UHGV virus genome: UHGV-1443059
DNA from: a virus
Strand: one strand, 5' to 3'
DNA: 6,834 nucleotides
Both the position numbers and the translations under genes were made by a program. Under the pieces are notes generated by a model that saw only the letters and a list, made by a program, of their open reading frames with translations, had not been told where the DNA came from and made no database searches. This document shows, piece by piece, positions 1 to 6,834 of this stretch. How positions within the stretch are numbered: position 1 is the stretch's first letter; every line of letters begins with the position of its first letter.

Positions 1-650
1 ACTATGATCGGCATCGCTCAGTCCGGTTGGTGATTTTGGTTGGTTTGGCGATTGATCAGATCGCACAATCCGGGCTGAGTTCCCTTTCAGTGATCTACTA
101 TTCCGCGCAGCTATTTAGTGGTTCCAGTCTTTCTAAAGGTGATATTCAGTCTGCGATCGAAGGTGCTTCACCCAAAATAGCCAGCGATATTCATGATAAA
201 TTAACGGAGAAAGACACTTCATCAGATGATAAAAAAAATGCCGATGAACAAACCAGGAATAATATAAATCGTCTTGACGATTCCATTAACAATCTTACGC
301 GGGGGGCTGGCCGTTTTGCTGACCCTTCAGGTGGTGATTCTCGTTATGGAAAGGGCGACTCTGAATTAGATGGCGCTTCTACTTTAGCTGATTCTGAATT
401 GGGAATTGAAAAGGATTCTCACGGTGCTTTATGGGAAGCATTTTTAAATAAAGGTGCTATGCTGCCTAATTTACCCAATGGTAACGGCTGCTCTGATTTT
501 ATTATTTTTCCCGGAGAGGTTTATCAGATTGATATTGGTTGCGATAAATTACTGACTATTAAAGATGTTCTTTCATGGGTTTTTTATTGCCTTACGTTCT
601 GGTATGTCTTTACTTCTTTAACTTCATTGCTTCGCAAAGGGGGTGAGTGA
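1..650 (+). CDS. gIII: Gene III minor coat/adsorption protein pIII, C-terminal part only (5' end lies outside the window; reading frame starts at nt 3; stop TGA 648-650)
   Basis: Frame 3 is open from the window edge, so the TTG at 27 in the ORF track is not the real start. The C-terminal ~170 aa align in pattern with the M13 pIII CT domain: paired Cys (GCSDF...IDIGCDK vs M13 ECRPF...SIDCDK) and a C-terminal hydrophobic anchor ending in basic residues (VFYCLTFWYVFTSLTSLLRKGGE vs FAFLLYVATFMYVFSTFANILRNKES). Position directly upstream of gene VI matches Ff gene order. Confidence 0.85.
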   Translation, partial: YDRHRSVRLVILVGLAIDQIAQSGLSSLSVIYYSAQLFSGSSLSKGDIQSAIEGASPKIASDIHDKLTEKDTSSDDKKNADEQTRNNINRLDDSINNLTRGAGRFADPSGGDSRYGKGDSELDGASTLADSELGIEKDSHGALWEAFLNKGAMLPNLPNGNGCSDFIIFPGEVYQIDIGCDKLLTIKDVLSWVFYCLTFWYVFTSLTSLLRKGGE

Positions 651-991
651 TGCCTTTATTATTAGGTATTCCTGCATTGTTGCGTTTTCTTATTGGTCTT
701 GTTCCTTTGTTTATTGGCTATGTGGCGAGTTTTTTAGCTCGACTTGCTACCAGAACAGGATTAATCGCCTTTGCATTGGTCGCATTAATTACAACAACTG
801 TTACGCTTTTAATGCAGTACCTTGCTGAGGTCATGTACAACGGTTTACCTGCTGATTTCTCCCATTTAATGGCGTCTGTACTGCCTGACCATTTTCAGGC
901 GTGTGTTAACGTTATTATGGTTACTCGTATCAGTGTTTTTGTTTTCGATTTAAAACAAAAATTTCTTGATTATGCAAACAGGGTGATTTAA
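650..991 (+). CDS. gVI: Gene VI minor coat protein pVI (113 aa)
   Basis: N-terminus MPLLLGIPALLRFL matches M13 pVI MPVLLGIPLLLRFL; C-terminal FVFDLKQK matches M13 FIFDVKQK; size matches (M13 112 aa). ATG 650 overlaps the gene III stop (TGATG); G-rich SD aaggggg just upstream. ATG 650 preferred over the GTG at 647 from the ORF track. Confidence 0.85.
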   Translation: MPLLLGIPALLRFLIGLVPLFIGYVASFLARLATRTGLIAFALVALITTTVTLLMQYLAEVMYNGLPADFSHLMASVLPDHFQACVNVIMVTRISVFVFDLKQKFLDYANRVI

Positions 992-2086
992 ATGGCGGTT
1001 TATGTAGTAACAGGCAAATTAGGCTCAGGCAAGACACTTGTTAGTGTTTCCAGAATACAGGAAAGACTTGCTAAGGGTTGTCCTGTTGCCACTAATCTTG
1101 ATCTTAAATTGCATAATATGCCTATGGTTGGGCGTTATGCGAAAAAAACGCGCGTTATTCGCATTCCTGACAAGCCTTCATTAAATGATTTACTTGCTAT
1201 TGGTATTGGGAATACATCTTACGATGAATCCCGTAATGGCCTCCTTGTACTTGATGAATGTGGTACTTGGTTTAATTCCCGCTCATGGGGTGATAAAGAC
1301 AGACAACCTGTTATTGACTGGTTTTTACATGCCAGAAAATTAGGCTGGGATATTATATTTTTGATTCAGGATATTTCGATAATGGATAAGCAAGCTCGTC
1401 TGGCGCTTGCTGAGCATGTTGTTTATTGTCGCCGTTCAGATAAATTAAACATTCCTTTTGTTGGCTCCATTATGAATTTGGTTTCAGGAGCGAGATTTTC
1501 TTTACCAAAGGTACACTTTGGCATTGTCAAATATGGTGATAATGTTAATTCAATCACTGTTGATAAATGGATATATACAGGAAAATCTCTTTATTCTGCT
1601 TACAATACCAAACAAGCGTTCACAGATAATTATCCTCATGGCGCATTTTCGCTTTTGCCACCATTTATCACGCACGGTCAATTTTCTGTTCACAGAGGAT
1701 TTAATTATTATATGCGCCTCACTAAAATTTATTTTCGCAAATCGAACCGTCTTATATTAATGCTTTCTTTTTTGGCGCTGGGGCTTGCGTTTGGTTTCTG
1801 GCTCCAGTCTGGAAAGAATGTTGATGAAATCTCAGCTATTAAATCTGCTTATGCTGAACAGGCGAGGGCGGTAACGCCTGATTCGTCCAGTGACTTACCC
1901 CGACTTTCTATTAATTCTTTTTCACAACTTGGCTTTGACGTTTCCGTTACGTTTGTTGATGCAAAAGGTATGAAATATCAGTATTTTGATTTGATTAAAG
2001 ATGGTTATTCCGTTGATATTAAAGATGCCTGTCGTGTTGTTATTAGAAAAGGCCGTTATTTACAGACTGTTACCTGTCAGGAGTAA
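992..2086 (+). CDS. gI: Gene I assembly ATPase pI (Zot-like), 364 aa
   Basis: N-terminus MAVYVVTGKLGSGKTLVSV is near-identical to M13 pI MAVYFVTGKLGSGKTLVSV; Walker A GKLGSGKT and Walker B LLVLDECG present; long blocks such as QPVIDWFLHARKLGWDIIFL are conserved with M13. Starts immediately after the gene VI TAA (989-991). Confidence 0.93.
   Translation: MAVYVVTGKLGSGKTLVSVSRIQERLAKGCPVATNLDLKLHNMPMVGRYAKKTRVIRIPDKPSLNDLLAIGIGNTSYDESRNGLLVLDECGTWFNSRSWGDKDRQPVIDWFLHARKLGWDIIFLIQDISIMDKQARLALAEHVVYCRRSDKLNIPFVGSIMNLVSGARFSLPKVHFGIVKYGDNVNSITVDKWIYTGKSLYSAYNTKQAFTDNYPHGAFSLLPPFITHGQFSVHRGFNYYMRLTKIYFRKSNRLILMLSFLALGLAFGFWLQSGKNVDEISAIKSAYAEQARAVTPDSSSDLPRLSINSFSQLGFDVSVTFVDAKGMKYQYFDLIKDGYSVDIKDACRVVIRKGRYLQTVTCQE
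1712..2086 (+). CDS. gXI: Gene XI (pXI), in-frame internal initiation within gene I giving the C-terminal 124 aa
   Basis: Internal ATG at codon 241 of gene I (MRLTKIYFRK) corresponds to M13 pXI start Met241 (MKLTKIYLKK), immediately before the predicted membrane-spanning segment LILMLSFLALGLAFGFWL. Called by homology of position; expression not demonstrable from sequence. Confidence 0.5.
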   Translation: MRLTKIYFRKSNRLILMLSFLALGLAFGFWLQSGKNVDEISAIKSAYAEQARAVTPDSSSDLPRLSINSFSQLGFDVSVTFVDAKGMKYQYFDLIKDGYSVDIKDACRVVIRKGRYLQTVTCQE

Positions 2087-2093
2087 TATTATT

Positions 2094-3359
2094 ATGCGCT
2101 CTGTTATTGTTGCTTTTTTATTTGCCTATTCATTCTGCGTTTCTGCTGAAACTGTTAATTTAAATAATTCATCTGTTCGCTCATTTGTTCAGTGGTATTC
2201 TTCAAAAACTGGCAAGCCTGTTATTGTTAATCCTGATATTAAAGGAAACGTAACCGTATTTAATGCTGATGTTAATCCAACAAATATTGATGATTTCTTT
2301 AAGTCTGTTCTGAATGCTAACGGTTTTGTCATGCTTTCTGGCAATCCTGCGGTAGTCTCTTTGCCGTCTAAATTACCTTCACAGATGGTTTCGGATTCCG
2401 ATGATTCTGATAACCAGTCTTATGATACTTTTCCTTCTGAGCCATCTTACCAGCCAGTACCTGTGGCGCTTACGGTCAGAAATTTTAAGCTGACAAAAGT
2501 TAGATCGTCCGATGTTCAGCAACTGATTAAAATTTATCTTGATTCTAATGGTGGTGGTAATGTCGTGGATTATCCAGGCAATAACTCGCTGATTGTTTCT
2601 GCGCCTGACGAGCTGCTGCCGGTTCTGTCCGATTTTATCAATTCTGTGGATGTTGCCCGCGATCAGGTTCTCATTCAGTCGCTGATGTTTGAAACCAGCT
2701 TGTCTGATGGCGTTGATTTATCGTTTGCGGCAGGTTCTGCATCCGGTCATAAGGTTGCGGGGGGCTTTAATACTTCTGCACTGGGTAGCGCTCTTTCTAC
2801 GGCGGGCGGTTCTTTTGGTATTTTTGATGGTAACGTGTTGGCGCTGTCTCTGCGTGCTGTCCAGAGTAATTCACGCTCTAAGGTGATTTCAACGCCGCGT
2901 ATTCTTACTCAGTCTGGTCAGACTGGTTACATTTCCGTAGGTAAGAATGTGCCGTTTATCACCGGAAAGGTAACGGGCGAATCTGCCGGGGTAAATAATC
3001 CGTTTCAGACTATCGAGCGTCATGATGTTGGCGTTTCTCTCAAGGTAACGCCTGTTGTCATGGGTAACGGGCAACTAGTTCTGACTATCGACACTCGCGC
3101 TGATTCAATCAGCAATGATGATCAGGCATCCGATATTATTACTAATCAGCGCCAGATTCAGACGACAGTCCAGATTAAGGATGGTCAGACGTTGTTATTG
3201 GGGGGGCTTATCGATTCATCGTTCAGCAATGCCGAGCGTTCAGTTCCAGTTATAAGTAAAATTCCTCTTATAGGCTGGATTTTCAGTAGCAAGGCAGACA
3301 GCAATGAACAGCGTATTATGTATATTTTGCTTACAGCACATATCATTCGTCCACTTTGA
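2094..3359 (+). CDS. gIV: Gene IV outer-membrane secretin pIV (421 aa precursor with signal peptide)
   Basis: Start ATG 2094 preceded by AGGAG (2079-2083); the ORF-track start at 2001 is an upstream in-frame extension overlapping gene I. Signal-peptide-like N-terminus MRSVIVAFLFAYSFCVSA|ET. Extensive similarity to M13 pIV, e.g. VTGESAGVNNPFQTIER, DGQTLLLGGL, SKIPLIGWIFSS versus M13 VTGESANVNNPFQTIER, DGQTLLLGGL, SKIPLIGLLFSS. Confidence 0.93.
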   Translation: MRSVIVAFLFAYSFCVSAETVNLNNSSVRSFVQWYSSKTGKPVIVNPDIKGNVTVFNADVNPTNIDDFFKSVLNANGFVMLSGNPAVVSLPSKLPSQMVSDSDDSDNQSYDTFPSEPSYQPVPVALTVRNFKLTKVRSSDVQQLIKIYLDSNGGGNVVDYPGNNSLIVSAPDELLPVLSDFINSVDVARDQVLIQSLMFETSLSDGVDLSFAAGSASGHKVAGGFNTSALGSALSTAGGSFGIFDGNVLALSLRAVQSNSRSKVISTPRILTQSGQTGYISVGKNVPFITGKVTGESAGVNNPFQTIERHDVGVSLKVTPVVMGNGQLVLTIDTRADSISNDDQASDIITNQRQIQTTVQIKDGQTLLLGGLIDSSFSNAERSVPVISKIPLIGWIFSSKADSNEQRIMYILLTAHIIRPL

Positions 3360-3403
3360 TGGATAGCGGGTAGGTGCGTAAGCCCTGCTCGCTATCCATC
3401 AAA
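3355..3403. repeat. Extended inverted repeat/hairpin overlapping the gene IV stop codon (14-bp perfect arms tttgatggatagcg / cgctatccatcaaa, with further inner pairing and a GTAA-containing loop)
   Basis: Arms 3355-3368 and 3390-3403 are exact reverse complements; inner pairs 3370-3374 with 3384-3388. No U-run follows, so not a canonical intrinsic terminator. By analogy with the Ff intergenic region this is where the packaging-signal hairpin sits. Confidence 0.6.
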
Positions 3404-3428
3404 TGGACATTATTGATTGGGGTAACTA

Positions 3429-3737
3429 ATGGATTCTTATGGGATTTTATCTGCTCTGGCAGAACGAACGATTACAGCGGAAGAAGCAAAAACAATGACA
3501 CTTGCAGCCAGAAGTTCTTCGGCTCAGGTAAATGAAGCATCACTTGCTCTGTTACTGATTGATAATACTCTGGATGCGATCAAAGCAGCTGCCAGTGAAG
3601 GGAAAGGATACACTTTACTTCCTTCTTATGAGATTTCTGTAAAAGCCATTGATTTAGCAGAAGAATTTTTAAGGAAACAATGCGGCTATGTTATTGATAA
3701 CCAGAATGGCGTAAGGACGGTCTATTGGTTTATATGA
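3429..3737 (+). CDS. Hypothetical protein, 102 aa (no recognisable motif; predicted soluble, helical N-terminal half)
   Basis: Intact ORF with ATG at 3429 preceded by GGGGT (3419-3423, 5-nt spacer); ends TGA 3735-3737 followed directly by TAA and a strong hairpin. Not homologous to any Ff protein I recognise. Confidence 0.5.
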   Translation: MDSYGILSALAERTITAEEAKTMTLAARSSSAQVNEASLALLLIDNTLDAIKAAASEGKGYTLLPSYEISVKAIDLAEEFLRKQCGYVIDNQNGVRTVYWFI

Positions 3738-3740
3738 TAA

Positions 3741-3810
3741 CCCCTGACAATGACAAAACTTGCTTTTGTTAGTGTCAGGGGTTGGCCAAGCCGAACAATT
3801 CTGTTTTTTT
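3741..3810 (+). terminator. Strong stem-loop (9 bp + 8 bp stem, 5-nt loop, 3741-3781) followed 22 nt later by a T7 run (3804-3810); candidate transcript end for the 102-aa ORF or a structured phage cis element
   Basis: cccctgaca at 3741-3749 pairs with tgtcagggg at 3773-3781; tgacaaaa at 3751-3758 pairs with ttttgtta at 3764-3771. The U-run is not immediately adjacent, so a terminator assignment is tentative. Confidence 0.35.
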
Positions 3811-3854
3811 AGCGTTATTGCTGATTCGGCGCGGCAGCATTACGAGGAGATAAA

Positions 3855-4088
3855 ATGCAATTTTTCACATCCAGCGATACTGTAATGTTATGTGCGAAGA
3901 CCTGCGATCGCTGTGGTCGCCATGCGAAGACGGTGGTAGATGACATTGAGTTCAATGAGTTTCTGTCTGTTAATCACTTAGCTGGATACGGTTCAATTTT
4001 TGGTGACAGTAATCGCTTAAAACTGGATTTATGCCAACATTGCCTGAAAGACGTCCTGGGCCAGTGGATTACGGTCTGTGACCAATGA
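3855..4088 (+). CDS. Small zinc-ribbon protein, 77 aa, with two CxxC pairs (C17-x2-C20 ... C60-x2-C63)
   Basis: Strong RBS GAGGAG (3844-3849) with 5-nt spacer to ATG 3855. Four Cys arranged as CDRC...CQHC, typical of a Zn-ribbon/treble-clef fold. Sits between the upstream hairpin/T-run and the dif site. Confidence 0.6.
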   Translation: MQFFTSSDTVMLCAKTCDRCGRHAKTVVDDIEFNEFLSVNHLAGYGSIFGDSNRLKLDLCQHCLKDVLGQWITVCDQ

Positions 4089-4126
4089 CGGCACCGGTAA
4101 CGCCAGTTCCCGCCATCCTTACCATT

Positions 4127-4154
4127 GGTGCGCATAATGTATATTATGTTAAAT
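4127..4154. other. dif: dif site (XerC/XerD chromosome-dimer resolution site): GGTGCGCATAA-TGTATA-TTATGTTAAAT, 28/28 identical to the E. coli chromosomal dif consensus
   Basis: Exact match read directly from the sequence to the well-known E. coli dif 28-mer (XerC arm, 6-bp central region, XerD arm). XerC arm faces the phage genes, XerD arm faces the recombinase genes. Confidence 0.9.
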
Positions 4155-4245
4155 TTAGTCCGTCGGTCATTTAGTTCATAACCGGCCACAGGATACGATT
4201 AATCATACACTTACCTACCCCTCTATCTTCTTCTTGCAGGACGTT

Positions 4246-5700
4246 ATGTTTGTCGGTTACTTTGTTCATATCCACACCATTGATAAGGTTAAGTGCCGCG
4301 TGTTCATACTTACACAACTCAATATCAACCAACGGCAGCGTTTATGGGCACTGATGGATACTCACACGCGCCAGCCGCTTTTATATCCGTTAATATATCT
4401 TATCGACCATCTTGCTTTGCGTTCATCAGCCACGCAATCCGCTTCACTTCAAGCGCTCAAGTTTTTCTATGAATTCTGGCACCAGAAACATGGTGTGACT
4501 TTTTGCTTCAGTTTCTATTCCTCGAACCACAATCCATTGATTGCCATTGATGAACTTACAGCCTTTTTTCATTATCTGGAAAATACGCATTTATATGTAC
4601 CAGCGTTAACCATAAGGTCTACTACGCAGACCACGCCTCAACGTTGTACAAATATCAGGCATGTACATTCGGTTATTCGTTTTATCAGATATTTGATTAA
4701 CACGTATATCTCGCCGAGATATATAGATGGCACGCCTAAAGAGCTTACACGACTTGCCACGCAGTTAACGGGACGTTTATCGATACATAAGGCAGAATTC
4801 CGTACTCTTACCCATTCTCGTCAGATGAACAATGGCACGACCCATAAACGCTTTCGAAGTCTGACTGCTGAGATGGTCATGGCTTTTTACCAAATCATTA
4901 CACCCGGTTCAATTTCAAAGAAAAACCCACTCAATCCCTTCCCCGCTGGTGAAATCCAGCTACGTAATTTTCTGATTTGCAGATTGCTTTTAAATTACGG
5001 ATTGCGTGTCAGTGAATTACTGCTTTTGGAGTGTCATTCGATCAAACCAAATCTCCGAGGGGATCAGTTCAGCCTGATTGTGACCACAGTAGATGACGAC
5101 GTTTCGGATCAACGAAAAAGATTGCCTTCATTAAAAAATGTTTATGCAAACCGGGTGCTGGCATTAGATAAACTGGACTTTCATTTTCTAAATATATATA
5201 TCCATAAAATCCGCCCTCAAGCCTCCCATAGTTTTCTGTTCACTTCCACCCAAAGACTACATCCGCCACTGTCATACCATGCAGTCTATGATATCTTTAC
5301 CCGTATTGATGACATTATGAGTGTGCAGTATCCTGAATATAAAAAAGATGAATATTATGATGCCATTGAAAGCATCTCGCCTCATATAACGCGGCATACT
5401 TGGGCTTATTTAACACTTCAACGTATTTATCGTGATAAACTTCAAAAAATTAAGGCCAACTCACACTTGGCAGCCATAGACTTTTCTATCGTTGGATTGA
5501 TGGATGAAGCCAAGGATGAATTACGGCTACTTGGCGGTTGGAGTCACAATAGCCATATGCCTGATCTTTACGCTAAAAGATTTCTATCTCAGCAGGCTAA
5601 TACGGCCAATCTTCAGCGAATTGTGATTGATAACGAAGCCCTGAAATCAACCTTTTCCCATGTATGCGATGAATGGAGTGCATATGAGTCGAATCAATAA
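4246..5700 (+). CDS. Tyrosine recombinase (phage-integrase family) with ~250-aa N-terminal extension; start codon uncertain (ATG 4246 chosen; TTG 4234 and ATG 4354 are alternatives)
   Basis: Catalytic-domain motifs are present in order: GLRVSEL (box I Arg, nt 5005-5007), HITRH (HxxR-H), LLGGWSH, and DLYAK (catalytic Tyr, nt 5569-5571); compare XerD GLRVSEL, HVLRH, LLGHSDL...IYTH. Confidence 0.88.
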   Translation: MFVGYFVHIHTIDKVKCRVFILTQLNINQRQRLWALMDTHTRQPLLYPLIYLIDHLALRSSATQSASLQALKFFYEFWHQKHGVTFCFSFYSSNHNPLIAIDELTAFFHYLENTHLYVPALTIRSTTQTTPQRCTNIRHVHSVIRFIRYLINTYISPRYIDGTPKELTRLATQLTGRLSIHKAEFRTLTHSRQMNNGTTHKRFRSLTAEMVMAFYQIITPGSISKKNPLNPFPAGEIQLRNFLICRLLLNYGLRVSELLLLECHSIKPNLRGDQFSLIVTTVDDDVSDQRKRLPSLKNVYANRVLALDKLDFHFLNIYIHKIRPQASHSFLFTSTQRLHPPLSYHAVYDIFTRIDDIMSVQYPEYKKDEYYDAIESISPHITRHTWAYLTLQRIYRDKLQKIKANSHLAAIDFSIVGLMDEAKDELRLLGGWSHNSHMPDLYAKRFLSQQANTANLQRIVIDNEALKSTFSHVCDEWSAYESNQ

Positions 5701-6834
5701 ACAGTTAAATGCGTCGAACAGCAACATTTACACACCTGTATTTGTTGAGAGTATTTTAAAGGTTAATATACCAGTTAGTATTTATCTTAAATCGGCAGAT
5801 CATTTTGATGACAAATATATCAGCTCAACAAGTGACAGTTGGGTATTCGATTATTCAGGAAGCCGCTGCTATGCCCACTTTCGTCAGGATAAAATCAGCA
5901 ACCAATTAATCAAATATATTTGCTTCCATTATGCATCTGCCAAGTGTCCAGCTCAGGTTCCTGGGGTACTCCATGCGTGGTCTTTGGCAACTGATCATTG
6001 CATAAGCAAATCTGCTTTCACTTTTACGGTGTTGAAAGATTACCTCGAAACTCAGGAAATTAAACCTCAATATTTCTACTTTATCATTTTCGGCCTAAAA
6101 ATCCTCTGTACCGAAGCATTCCCTGGTTTTACCCTCGAAGATTATGAAGACCTCGAATTCATCCCTCGCCCGCACTCCCATGACTGGGGAATCTATCAGG
6201 AAATTGATCATGTTCTGGATCCCCTCGAAAAAAACATGATCAGTAAAGGCTTGTTTGAAATGGCTGTGGCGATTCGGTATGGCGAAAACTACAGTCTGAA
6301 CACCATGCGAGATGCAGTAATTCTGGGACTGACGTATGTCACCGGTGCCCGACCGGTACAACTGGCCAAGCTGGCGGTAAAAGATTTACGTATTGATACC
6401 CGAAACTCCGAAACCGGATTAATACGATATAGCTTACTCCTTCCTTACGCCAAACAGCGGCACGTAACGACTGAACGTCTGTTTTTGGCGATTCCAGCTG
6501 AAATCGGCGCGTTGATTAGGCACTATATCGAGCGAGCGCAACTAAAACCTGATGGCAAGCTATTTGAATTTAGTAACTCTGCACCGTTTAATGTGTCCAG
6601 AGCGATTAACAAGGCCTTCCTCTGTTTCAGTCCGCCAGATTATCAGGCAGCCGTAAAGCGTGGCGAAGCGGCTTTGCCAACCATTACCCCGACCGACTTG
6701 CGCCACAACGTGGGGCATTCACTGGCTATGCAAGGGGTCAGCGCCGAGGAAATTGCGCATATTCTGGGACATAGCTCCCTTACTGTTGCCAAGTATTACA
6801 TTCTGGCGACGCCTGCACTGGCACTGATTCGAGC
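5684..6834 (+). CDS. Second tyrosine recombinase (phage-integrase family), 3' end outside the window; at least 383 aa
   Basis: Frame 2 is open from ATG 5684 to the window end (translated by hand, no stops). Motifs: TGARPVQLAKL (box I Arg), PYAKQRH (Lys), TDLRH (box II Arg-His), ILGHSSLTVAKYY (His plus catalytic Tyr). Start overlaps the upstream recombinase gene by 17 nt (stop TAA 5698-5700). Confidence 0.85.
   Translation, partial: MSRINKQLNASNSNIYTPVFVESILKVNIPVSIYLKSADHFDDKYISSTSDSWVFDYSGSRCYAHFRQDKISNQLIKYICFHYASAKCPAQVPGVLHAWSLATDHCISKSAFTFTVLKDYLETQEIKPQYFYFIIFGLKILCTEAFPGFTLEDYEDLEFIPRPHSHDWGIYQEIDHVLDPLEKNMISKGLFEMAVAIRYGENYSLNTMRDAVILGLTYVTGARPVQLAKLAVKDLRIDTRNSETGLIRYSLLLPYAKQRHVTTERLFLAIPAEIGALIRHYIERAQLKPDGKLFEFSNSAPFNVSRAINKAFLCFSPPDYQAAVKRGEAALPTITPTDLRHNVGHSLAMQGVSAEEIAHILGHSSLTVAKYYILATPALALIR

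What the first reader, a model, noticed from the sequence alone, without database searches (positions are those of the whole stretch)
4246..6834. Tandem, overlapping pair of large tyrosine recombinases immediately beyond dif
Two consecutive + strand ORFs both carry tyrosine-recombinase catalytic motifs (GLRVSEL...HITRH...DLY and GARPVQL...DLRH...LGHSSLTVAKYY), and the second start overlaps the first stop by 17 nt, suggesting co-expression. Both have long N-terminal extensions (about 250 and 220 aa before box I), so they are not XerC/XerD. Tandem tyrosine recombinases are characteristic of Tn554-type transposons (TnpA/TnpB) and recombinase-in-trio elements, not of filamentous phages, which normally rely on host Xer or on single integrases. 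Their position directly on the XerD-arm side of a dif junction is unusual: this could be a second mobile element sitting next to dif, or a recombinase module belonging to the phage element itself. The window ends inside the second gene, so a third recombinase or accessory gene cannot be excluded.
Basis: partly seen in the sequence, partly recalled or inferred. Interest (0 to 1): 0.8.

Follow-up and report, generated by a model that had tools for sequence, protein, structure and literature searches.

The report
Three-integrase island that targets dif
The two overlapping recombinase genes are the start of a known kind of mobile island (a "GInt", which carries three integrase-like genes and a small helper gene). 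This branch of the family always inserts at the outer edge of the XerD-binding half of dif-type sites, on chromosomes and on plasmids, a target I did not find described in the papers I could search.

Summary
An exact E. coli dif sits at window 4127-4154. It is followed by Int1 (4300-5700) and Int2 (5684 to beyond the window end), which overlap by 17 nt. Both keep complete tyrosine-recombinase catalytic residues.

They do not belong to the filamentous prophage on the left (1-4126). They are the first two genes of a conserved four-gene operon: Int1, Int2, a 788-aa third recombinase-fold protein and a 144-aa protein. This operon heads an 18-kb island that is absent from K-12. The architecture is that of GInts (Bardaji 2017). 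Islands at this E. coli hotspot (hipA/ydeT) are already labelled GInt in a 2023 supplementary table.

The target appears to be new. In 34 of 39 loci from Enterobacterales, Acinetobacter, Psychrobacter, Moraxella, Vibrio, Aeromonas, Shewanella and Marinobacter, and in 9 of 9 plasmid copies examined, the element abuts the XerD arm TTATGTTAAAT of a Xer site, always in the same orientation. The XerC arm and the central region vary.

attL and attR share only GTTAAAT. attR carries a conserved ATAAGTTAAAT and the reconstructed attP has no XerC arm, so exchange at XerCD's own cleavage points can be excluded. dif is regenerated after insertion, which fits the tandem islands and the co-resident phages seen at the site.

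Verdict: a new variant of a known kind.

The parts
4127..4154 (+). dif, the chromosomal Xer site: XerC arm 4127-4137, central region 4138-4143, XerD arm 4144-4154. It is both the attachment target and the left junction (attL) of the island. It also marks the right end of the filamentous prophage.
   Evidence: Exact match to the E. coli dif 28-mer. Phage-only genomes match the window up to 4154/4155. Island-only genomes match from 4124-4126 onward.
4148..4154 (+). GTTAAAT, the 7-bp sequence shared by attL and attR, and the inferred strand-exchange region at the outer end of the XerD arm.
   Evidence: K-12 (empty site) compared with AH21. The island L002:20032-38221 is bounded by dif...GTTAAAT on the left and ...ACATAAGTTAAAT on the right, followed by the K-12 flank CATGTCTGAG.
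4155..4299 (+). Non-coding left end of the island. It carries the conserved sub-terminal motif (G/C)TTCA(T/C)(A/G) at 4174-4180 and 4264-4270, with a third copy at 4302-4308 just inside Int1. It also contains an AATCAnACnCTTA-like box around 4200-4215.
   Evidence: The motif lies at +20 and about +110 from the XerD-arm end in nearly all loci: 6.4 per kb against 0.52 per kb background. Per-position conservation at +19 to +25 is 88-97% over 42 distinct junctions.
4300..5700 (+).
   Evidence: Catalytic residues R236, K279, R365, H366, W414, Y424 are at least 95% conserved in 36 homologues. The profile hits XerA. Homologous to the first gene of a Pseudomonas four-gene module, E=5e-14.
5684..6834 (+). 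Int2, the ginB-like tyrosine recombinase: first 383 of 516 codons. The gene runs 400 nt beyond the window end.
   Evidence: R223, K257, R340, H341, H363, Y372 are invariant. Pfam score is 41.9 bits. NCBIfam NF041502 scores 96.7 bits on the full-length protein. The AlphaFold model is confident for residues 13-376. Homologous to the second gene of the Pseudomonas module, HMM E=4e-18.
1..4126 (+). Context only, not part of the element: the 3' part of a filamentous (Zot/secretin) prophage integrated at dif.
   Evidence: Annotated as attachment protein, DUF5455, Zot, secretin and two hypotheticals. It is present as three tandem copies in strain KFu015 and occurs next to dif without the recombinases in many E. 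coli.

Best explanation
The two ORFs are ginA- and ginB-like genes, the first two genes of the four-gene recombination operon of a GInt-type genomic island (a genomic island with three integrases). The full operon is Int1, Int2, a 788-aa third tyrosine-recombinase-fold protein (P3, ginC-like) and a 144-aa helper (P4, ginD-like). The genes overlap or abut, so they are probably co-translated.

The island integrates by site-specific recombination catalysed by its own proteins, not by XerCD. Its attachment site carries ATAAGTTAAAT, which mimics the XerD-binding arm TTATGTTAAAT. Strand exchange falls within the shared GTTAAAT at the outer edge of that arm. The full 28-bp dif is therefore rebuilt at the left junction, and only a XerD-arm-like half-site is left at the right junction.

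Conserved sub-terminal repeats (GTTCATA and its complement) lie about 20-34 bp and about 110 bp from both ends. They probably organise the multi-recombinase complex.

Because the only conserved part of the target is the XerD arm, any Xer site can serve: chromosomal dif or a plasmid multimer-resolution site. This gives an element with no transfer genes a ride on conjugative plasmids. It also leaves dif free for further insertions, either filamentous phages through XerCD or more islands.

Shown here: the anatomy, the boundaries, the synteny, the target association and the conserved residues. Inferred: which proteins cut where, and that the element is currently active.
For: Separate element.
- Phage without recombinases.
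- Recombinases without phage.
- Empty site in K-12 compared with the 18.2-kb insertion in AH21, bounded by GTTAAAT.

Four-gene operon.
- Annotated.
- Syntenic in about 40 loci down to 26-35% identity.
- Gene junctions overlap or lie within 30 nt in nearly all loci.

GInt identity.
- The published definition matches: ginABCD at the 5' border, three integrase-like genes plus a small protein, variable cargo, imperfect direct repeats (PMC5385486).
- Islands at hotspot #20 (hipA/ydeT) are labelled GInt in Hochhauser 2023.
- Gene-by-gene homology to a Pseudomonas plasmid module of the same architecture holds for three of the four genes.

Target.
- A dif-like site lies 83-340 bp upstream of Int1, always in the same orientation, in 33 of 39 loci.
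- One further locus, L040, abuts a Xer-like site with the same XerD arm, giving 34 of 39.
- 9 of 9 plasmid copies abut an exact XerD arm, while the XerC arm and central region differ.
- The XerD arm is 92-100% conserved per position over 42 distinct junctions.
- The exact 11-mer occurs 49 times in 2.24 Mb scanned, where about 0.5 is expected by chance.
- Every E. coli chromosomal copy listed in a 40-row sample spread down the ranking starts 1-3 nt before dif.

Against exchange at XerCD's cleavage points.
- attR is ATAAGTTAAAT in E. coli, E. whittamii and Acinetobacter, not the chromosomal arm.
- attP has no XerC arm.

Tandem islands.
Against: - No experiment here shows excision, a circular form or integration for this clade.
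- Direct sequence comparison with the reference GinA-D proteins of Bardaji et al. could not be run. Membership rests on architecture, on a third party's BLAST-based label, and on homology to an unnamed Pseudomonas module.
- The small protein P4 shows no significant similarity to the Pseudomonas fourth gene.
- Published GinC is said to lack the first catalytic arginine or the whole RHRY set. P3 here keeps R250, K294, H506, R509 and Y541. So either this clade differs or the third protein is not strictly equivalent.
- Only one clean attB/attL/attR triple (E. coli) was obtained. A second attempt on a plasmid found a remnant, not an empty site.
- In five loci, two Vibrio, one Photobacterium and two of the three Psychrobacter exceptions (L017, L023, L025, L044, L045), the sequence abutting the element was not resolved.
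Confidence: 0.82

Rival explanations
1. The recombinase pair is a lysogeny module of the filamentous prophage itself, meaning the phage carries its own integrases.
For: The genes lie immediately next to the prophage and on the same strand. A filamentous prophage and an island of this type also sit together at dif in Acinetobacter johnsonii.
Against: The prophage repeats as a 7.97-kb unit that does not include the recombinases. It occurs at dif in many E. coli with the match ending at window 4154/4155. The recombinases occur at dif with hipA directly on the other side and no phage. A different phage sits next to the same recombinases in strain 90-9280.
Confidence: 0.02
2. It is an IMEX: an element integrated by the host XerCD at dif, with the recombinase genes serving another role or simply carried as cargo.
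For: It lies at dif, like all IMEX elements. The right end keeps a XerD-arm-like sequence with 9 of 11 matches. Tandem arrays form, as they do for IMEX elements.
Against: The reconstructed attP has no XerC arm. XerCD exchange at the borders of the central region would leave the chromosomal XerD arm TTATGTTAAAT at attR, but attR carries ATAAGTTAAAT, conserved from E. coli to Acinetobacter. The left junction keeps the complete chromosomal central region and XerD arm. In other GInts all four gin genes are required for excision and integration (PMC5385486).
Confidence: 0.05
3. It is a member of another multi-recombinase element family: Tn554 proper, a recombinase-in-trio (RIT) element, a strand-biased circularizing element (SE) or a Gamma-Mobile-Trio (GMT) island.
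For: All of these carry tandem tyrosine recombinases at one end. Int2 gives a weak NCBIfam hit to GmtY (17-18 bits). GInts are grouped with Tn554 in one classification.
Against: Tn554 has no third large protein. RIT elements have three ordinary-sized recombinases, no fourth gene and, to my knowledge, no cargo. SEs have the order intA-tfp-intB-srap, with the non-catalytic protein second, whereas here it is third. GMT has GmtY, GmtZ and a small StbA-like GmtX, and the GmtY score is far below the cutoff of 340.
Confidence: 0.06
4. The genes are a conserved host function at the terminus, for example an alternative Xer system, and not a mobile element.
For: The association with dif is constant and the orientation is fixed.
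Against: They are present in about 2% of complete E. coli genomes (118 of 5426 with at least 80% coverage) and absent from K-12. They are followed by variable cargo, bounded by repeats, and found on plasmids of several incompatibility groups.
Confidence: 0.01

Closest known systems
[quoted passage not shown] 2017, PMC5385486), also called Tn6571/Tn6488-type elements
   Same: - A four-gene operon at the 5' border, in the order recombinase, recombinase, large recombinase-fold protein, small protein.
- Tight gene packing.
- Variable cargo of defence, resistance and metabolic genes.
- Short imperfect direct repeats at the ends and a conserved AT-rich right end.
- No transfer genes.
- E. coli islands at hipA/ydeT are already labelled GInt (Hochhauser 2023 supplement).
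   Different: - The target. [quoted passage not shown] None of the GInt papers I read mentions dif or Xer sites as a target.
- The third protein keeps a full R-K-H-R-Y set here, whereas GinC is described as lacking the first arginine or the whole motif.
- Copies are common on plasmids (159 records), whereas a 2024 preprint states that GInts have not been associated with plasmids.
IMEX elements (CTXphi, TLCphi, VGJphi, the gonococcal genetic island, and E. coli/Yersinia filamentous phages such as the one in this window)
   Same: They integrate at dif and regenerate a usable dif. They accumulate in tandem arrays at the terminus. They also use plasmid or chromosomal Xer sites.
   Different: IMEX elements encode no recombinase and use host XerCD, exchanging strands at the borders of the central region. 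This element encodes three recombinase-type proteins, has no XerC arm in attP, and exchanges in the outer 7 bp of the XerD arm.
Tn554 (TnpA, TnpB, TnpC)
   Same: Two tandem tyrosine recombinases, one ordinary and one large, plus a small protein. High target specificity. Short core sequences at the junctions and no terminal inverted repeats of the classical kind.
   Different: Tn554 has no third large recombinase-fold protein and a different target (att554). It is found in Firmicutes and is much smaller.
[quoted passage not shown] 2023, PMC10214605)
   Same: Four core genes, including two catalytic recombinases, a recombinase-fold protein and a small coiled-coil helper. Gammaproteobacterial hosts. 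No transfer genes.
   Different: The gene order differs (tfp is second in SEs). SE and GInt proteins form separate similarity clusters.

Membership tests
GInt (ginABCD islands) | A four-gene operon at the 5' border of the island: two integrases, a third larger integrase-like protein and a small protein, co-transcribed. | tested here: met
   The genes encode 466, 516, 788 and 144 aa, with overlaps of 17, 4 and 1 nt. The same order holds in about 40 loci. Junctions overlap or lie within 30 nt in nearly all. Transcription itself was not tested.
GInt (ginABCD islands) | Sequence homology to reference GinA, GinB, GinC and GinD. | tested here: inconclusive
   The reference proteins could not be fetched. 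Indirect evidence is as follows. Hochhauser 2023 labelled hotspot #20 (hipA/ydeT) islands GInt by BLAST at E<1e-5. Int1, Int2 and P3 are homologous one-to-one to a Pseudomonas aeruginosa plasmid module of the same architecture (E=5e-14, 1e-13 and 6e-10; HMM E down to 2e-25), while P4 is not significant. Int2 and the Pseudomonas second protein both hit NF041502.
GInt (ginABCD islands) | The third protein has a tyrosine-recombinase fold but is degenerate (reported to lack the first Arg or the RHRY set). | tested here: inconclusive
GInt (ginABCD islands) | Variable cargo after the fourth gene, with the island bounded by 10-17 nt imperfect direct repeats. | tested here: met
   Cargo differs between KFu015, AH21, 90-9280, E. 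whittamii and plasmids. The repeat is TATGTTAAAT on the left and TAAGTTAAAT on the right (9 of 10, 7 exact).
GInt (ginABCD islands) | Excision as a circle and re-integration, both dependent on all four genes. | not testable with these tools
   Only an empty site (K-12) and tandem copies are seen.
IMEX (integrative mobile elements exploiting Xer) | An attP with XerC and XerD arms. Integration by host XerCD with exchange at the borders of the central region. No recombinase of its own. | tested here: not met
   attP has no XerC arm. attR carries ATAAGTTAAAT rather than the chromosomal arm. The element encodes three recombinase-type proteins.
Tn554 family in the strict sense (tnpA-tnpB-tnpC) | A three-gene module: two recombinases plus a small TnpC, and no third large protein. 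| tested here: not met
   A conserved 788-aa gene lies between the second recombinase and the small gene.
Recombinase-in-trio (RIT) elements | Three ordinary-sized tyrosine recombinases in a row, no fourth gene and, from my own knowledge, usually no cargo. | tested here: not met
   The proteins are 466, 516 and 788 aa. A fourth gene is conserved, and the cargo spans more than 10 kb.
Strand-biased circularizing elements (SE) | Gene order intA-tfp-intB-srap. | tested here: not met
   The large recombinase-fold protein is third here, not second.
Gamma-Mobile-Trio (GMT) islands | GmtY, GmtZ and GmtX in tandem. | tested here: not met
   The GmtY model scores 16.9-17.9 bits against a cutoff of 340. 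No StbA-like small third gene is present.

The most novel reading that the evidence does not exclude
A whole clade of GInt islands has evolved recombinases that use the XerD-binding arm as their landing pad. This makes every Xer site in Gammaproteobacteria, whether chromosomal dif or a plasmid multimer-resolution site, a safe harbour that is rebuilt after insertion.

If true, three things follow. It explains how these transfer-less islands move between species, by shuttling between chromosome and conjugative plasmid. It explains why an E. coli defence-island hotspot sits at hipA/ydeT. And it explains why dif becomes a two-sided accretion point, with XerCD-dependent phages on one side and self-integrating islands on the other.

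A bolder version is that bound XerD is part of the target or is displaced by the island's proteins, which would link island integration to chromosome dimer resolution.
Probability: 0.5. Interest if true: 0.78.

Novelty: new variant of a known kind. Interest (0 to 1): 0.64.

Why it matters
- dif has been studied for decades as the target of elements that borrow XerCD. An abundant, taxonomically broad family that uses its own three-protein recombinase set to insert at the edge of dif without damaging it would be a second and mechanistically different way of exploiting this site.
- It gives a concrete, testable answer to an open question in the GInt literature: how islands without transfer genes spread. 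Here the same element, with 99.6% identical Int2 protein, sits at E. coli dif and at a Klebsiella plasmid Xer site.
- It explains a known defence-island hotspot in E. coli.
- It defines a compact target, one 11-bp arm conserved across Gammaproteobacteria, that could be of use for site-specific insertion tools.
- It raises the question whether tens of kilobases inserted right next to dif affect FtsK-guided dimer resolution.

Tried and rejected
- Single-sequence searches of Int1 and P3 against PDB sequences found nothing useful. Profiles were needed.
- The C-terminal Cys-motif region of Int2 was modelled with low confidence, so no fold search was run on it.
- I tried to fetch a published E. coli GInt (H10407, hotspot 9) by IMG coordinates. 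This returned an unrelated region because the coordinate systems differ.
- Searching the supplements of Idola 2023 for the RefSeq protein accessions found nothing.
- A second empty-site comparison on the Col(VCM04)/MOBH plasmid backbone failed. The candidate (K. michiganensis p1) holds a 100-nt left-end remnant followed by an ars operon.
- A literature search for phrases such as 'adjacent to dif' was swamped by 'different'. More specific searches found no report of dif-targeting GInts, but the library omits most subscription journals.
- Promoter and terminator scans of the left end gave nothing above chance.
- KOPS polarity in the island was considered but not computed, because there are too few sites per island.
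Full report
**1.

- The window carries the exact E. coli dif 28-mer at 4127-4154.
- Immediately to its right is an ORF open from 4234 to 5700. A second ORF starts at ATG 5684 and is still open at the window end. The 17-nt overlap is real.
- RefSeq starts the first gene at GTG 4300 (466 aa) and gives the second 516 aa.
- Pfam Phage_integrase scores 41.9 bits for Int2, above the gathering score, but only 23 bits for Int1, below it.
- The case for Int1 therefore rests on conservation. In 36 homologues R236, K279, R365, H366, W414 and Y424 are at least 95% conserved. A family profile aligns box I and the HxxRH box to XerA (5hxy, E=1.7e-7).
- Int2 keeps R223, K257, R340, H341, H363 and Y372.

**2. 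Where the window comes from, and what lies beside the genes**

- Window 116-6834 is 99.8% identical to E. coli KFu015, and window 4100-6834 is identical to it.
- Window 1-4126 is the 3' part of a filamentous prophage (attachment protein, DUF5455, Zot, secretin, two small ORFs). It is present as three tandem copies in KFu015.
- The phage and the recombinases are independent elements.
  - Many E. coli carry the phage with the match ending at window 4154/4155, the last base of dif.
  - About 118 of 5426 complete genomes carry the recombinases, and most have no phage.
  - In strain 90-9280 a different filamentous phage sits next to the same genes.

**3. Boundaries of the island**

- K-12 has hipA, dif, yneL', ydeT.
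- Strain AH21 has an 18.2-kb insertion between dif and the K-12 flank. The sequences are:
  - K-12: ...TTATGTTAAAT|CATGTCTGAG
  - AH21 left junction: ...TTATGTTAAAT|TTAGTCCGTC
  - AH21 right junction: ...CACAACATAAGTTAAAT|CATGTCTGAG
- The island is therefore bounded by GTTAAAT (7 exact bases, 9 of 10 with the next three). This is the outer end of the XerD-binding arm, and the full dif survives at the left junction.

**4. A four-gene operon**

- Downstream of Int2 lie a 788-aa 'hypothetical protein' (P3, 4-nt overlap) and a 144-aa protein (P4, 1-nt overlap).
- A scan of one genome per species with an Int2 alignment returned 51 loci.
- tblastn shows Int1-Int2-P3-P4 in that order in essentially all loci with enough sequence, at identities down to 26-35%. 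The hosts are Enterobacterales, Acinetobacter, Psychrobacter, Moraxella, Vibrio, Photobacterium, Aeromonas, Shewanella and Marinobacter.
- Gene junctions overlap or lie within 30 nt in nearly all loci.

**5. What kind of element it is**

- The architecture is that of GInts. These have a ginABCD operon at the 5' border (three putative integrases plus a small protein), cargo of 2.5-70 kb, an AT-rich right end and imperfect direct repeats. They excise as circles, and all four genes are required (Bardaji et al. 2017, PMC5385486).
- The gene order excludes SEs, where the non-catalytic protein is second. The third large gene excludes Tn554 proper. The gene sizes, the fourth gene and the cargo exclude RIT elements. 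GMT models score far below their cutoffs.
- Hochhauser et al. 2023 list hipA/ydeT as defence hotspot #20 (62 of 783 genomes occupied). They label the islands there in strains H3 and S43 'GInt' with CBASS cargo. The E. coli island has therefore already been filed under this family in a supplementary table.
- I could not fetch the reference Gin proteins. However, a Pseudomonas aeruginosa plasmid module with the same architecture (394, 487, 705 and 135 aa) is homologous gene by gene for three genes: Int1 E=5e-14, Int2 HMM E=4e-18, P3 HMM E=2e-25. P4 is not significant.
- Int2 and the Pseudomonas second protein both hit NCBIfam NF041502 below its cutoff.

**6. The third protein**

- P3 has no Pfam domain.
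- Its invariant residues form a complete set: TGFR250SxE, K294, H506-P-R509-H510, G531-R532 and Y541. These align with box I and box II of Tn1549 Int, although that alignment is statistically weak (E about 1).
- Published descriptions say GinC lacks the first arginine or the whole motif. This clade differs, or the point deserves re-examination.
- The Pseudomonas third protein also keeps R...HxxRH...Y in the alignment.
- The P3 family is small: 533 hits at E<=1e-3 and 73 at E<=1e-30 among 1.84 billion cluster representatives.

**7. The target: the main result**

- In 33 of 39 loci with enough upstream DNA, a dif-like 28-mer (0-5 mismatches to E. coli dif) lies 83-340 bp upstream of Int1. It always has the XerD arm nearest the element.
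- Aligning the junctions shows that the element starts at the same base after TTATGTTAAAT in every case.
- Every E. coli chromosomal copy listed in a 40-row sample spread down the ranking begins 1-3 nt before dif.
- The exceptions:
  - In A. johnsonii (L040) a filamentous prophage (Zot, Rep_trans) lies between the true dif and a Xer-like site with the same XerD arm, and that site abuts the island. This brings the count to 34 of 39.
  - In Psychrobacter T6-5 (L033) a P4-type integrase element lies between dif and the island.
  - The locus L049 in Acinetobacter NIPH 2699 (not among the 39) is a second island in tandem behind the L019 island.
  - Five loci were not resolved: L017, L023, L025, L044, L045.
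- Int2 homologues also occur on 159 plasmid records.
- In 9 of 9 plasmid copies examined, an exact TTATGTTAAAT abuts the left end, while the XerC arm and the central region differ. Examples are GGTGCGTGTAA-TCATTG-, AGTACATATAA-CAAAGA- and ATTTCGTATAA-GAAATT-. The plasmids are IncFIB/HI1B, IncFIB/FIC, Col(VCM04)/MOBH, IncHI1A, IncHI2A, IncC and a Vibrio plasmid.
- One of these, on a Citrobacter IncHI1A plasmid, is only 34% identical in Int2.
- Over 42 distinct junctions the XerD arm is 92-100% conserved per position, the XerC arm 45-100% and the central region 71-90%.
- The exact 11-mer occurs 49 times in the 2.24 Mb scanned, against about 0.5 expected by chance.
- The Pseudomonas module has no such arm upstream, so the target is a property of this clade and not of all GInts.
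- Published GInt targets are other genes. None of the GInt papers I read mentions dif, and specific literature searches found nothing.

**8. Element ends and the likely crossover**

- Left ends carry (G/C)TTCA(T/C)(A/G) at +20 and about +110, and sometimes at +131 to +148. The density is 12 times background.
- Right ends were found in E. coli AH21 (two), E. whittamii (an 11.5-kb island) and Acinetobacter NIPH 2699. They read ATGAACT-N14-16-ACATAAGTTAAAT, with the complementary motif at -34 and a palindromic AGTTCATGAAC at -111/-114.
- The reconstructed attP is thus roughly symmetrical around GTTAAAT.
- It has no XerC arm. Its XerD-like arm, ATAAGTTAAAT, differs from dif at two positions, and these positions stay with the element at attR.
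- XerCD exchange at the borders of the central region would instead place the chromosomal arm at attR. Exchange must therefore lie within or at GTTAAAT.
- The chromosomal flank beyond dif is not conserved between species, so recognition must rest on the dif side. This last step is inference.

**9. Consequences seen in genomes**

- Because dif is rebuilt, it can be used again.
- AH21 has a 2.1-kb remnant of a second island behind the first (L002:36063-38221).
- Acinetobacter NIPH 2699 has two islands in tandem, joined by ...ACATAAGTTAAAT|TGAGTACATG....
- In the window, three phage copies lie on the XerC side and the island lies on the XerD side.
- The same island variant is found at E. coli dif and next to a Klebsiella plasmid Xer site, with 99.6% identical Int2 protein and CBASS cargo. 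Two different variants occupy the same plasmid site near parM.
- This suggests chromosome-plasmid shuttling as the route of spread (inference).

**10. What is not shown**

- No excision, circle or integration has been demonstrated for this clade.
- The roles of the individual proteins, any involvement of or competition with XerD, and any effect on dimer resolution are all untested.
- Membership in GInt by direct comparison with the reference proteins remains to be done.

**Verdict**

The element is a GInt, a known kind. The constant targeting of the XerD arm of Xer sites, the catalytic-looking third protein and the frequent plasmid copies make it a new variant of that kind.

Noticed in passing
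window 1-4126; L001:1-20027: A filamentous (Zot/secretin) prophage ends exactly at dif. It is present as three tandem 7.97-kb copies in strain KFu015. The first 115 nt of the window do not match that strain.
   Followed up: partly
L002:36063-38221 (E. coli AH21): A second right-end sequence (ATGAACTGGCTTCACATTCACATAAGTTAAAT) is followed by the left end of a different island variant (AACCTCCATGAG...). This is a 2.1-kb remnant of an older island behind the intact one.
   Followed up: partly
L019 and L049 (Acinetobacter sp. NIPH 2699, same contig); junction at L049:9874-9906: Two complete islands lie in tandem. The right end of the first is joined directly to the left end of the second through ACATAAGTTAAAT.
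   Followed up: partly
L040:1159-8428 (A. johnsonii) and L033:5390-8470 (Psychrobacter sp.): Other elements lie between the true dif and the island. In A. johnsonii it is a 7-kb filamentous prophage (Zot, Rep_trans), bounded by dif and a Xer-like site with a 7-bp spacer. In Psychrobacter it is a P4-type integrase plus an HTH gene.
   Followed up: partly
Int2 residues 429-455 (beyond the window; L001:22869-22949) and P3 residues 660-691: Both proteins, and their Pseudomonas counterparts, carry an invariant four-cysteine motif (G-x-C...C-P...C...C) after the catalytic domain. It may bind zinc. AlphaFold modelled it with low confidence.
   Followed up: partly
L005, L039, L043: Contigs assigned to Chryseobacterium, a Chloroflexota MAG and a Kurthia MAG carry enterobacterial- or Acinetobacter-type copies. 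L005 has an E. coli-like dif and is 96% identical. These are probably contamination or binning errors.
   Followed up: no
L067:3573-3680 (K. michiganensis plasmid p1): About 100 nt of an island left end remain next to the plasmid Xer site and are then replaced by an ars operon. This is a decayed insertion, not an empty site.
   Followed up: yes
L001:26135-27727, L002:26888-28450, L057:17617-19209, L058:16516-18110: Three small genes (HTH, a 186-aa hypothetical, HTH) follow the four-gene operon in E. coli chromosomal and plasmid copies of two variants. They may be a conserved regulatory backbone rather than cargo.
   Followed up: no
window 3855-4088: A 77-aa ORF of the prophage has two CxxC pairs (CDRCGRH...CQHC) and a weak zinc-finger hit. 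Its function is unknown.
   Followed up: no
L002:29312-30262 and L001:38541-39491: A corA-ysgD segment bracketed by IS1 copies lies inside the island cargo, well away from where I would expect corA to lie on the E. coli chromosome. It was probably brought in by IS1-mediated capture.
   Followed up: no
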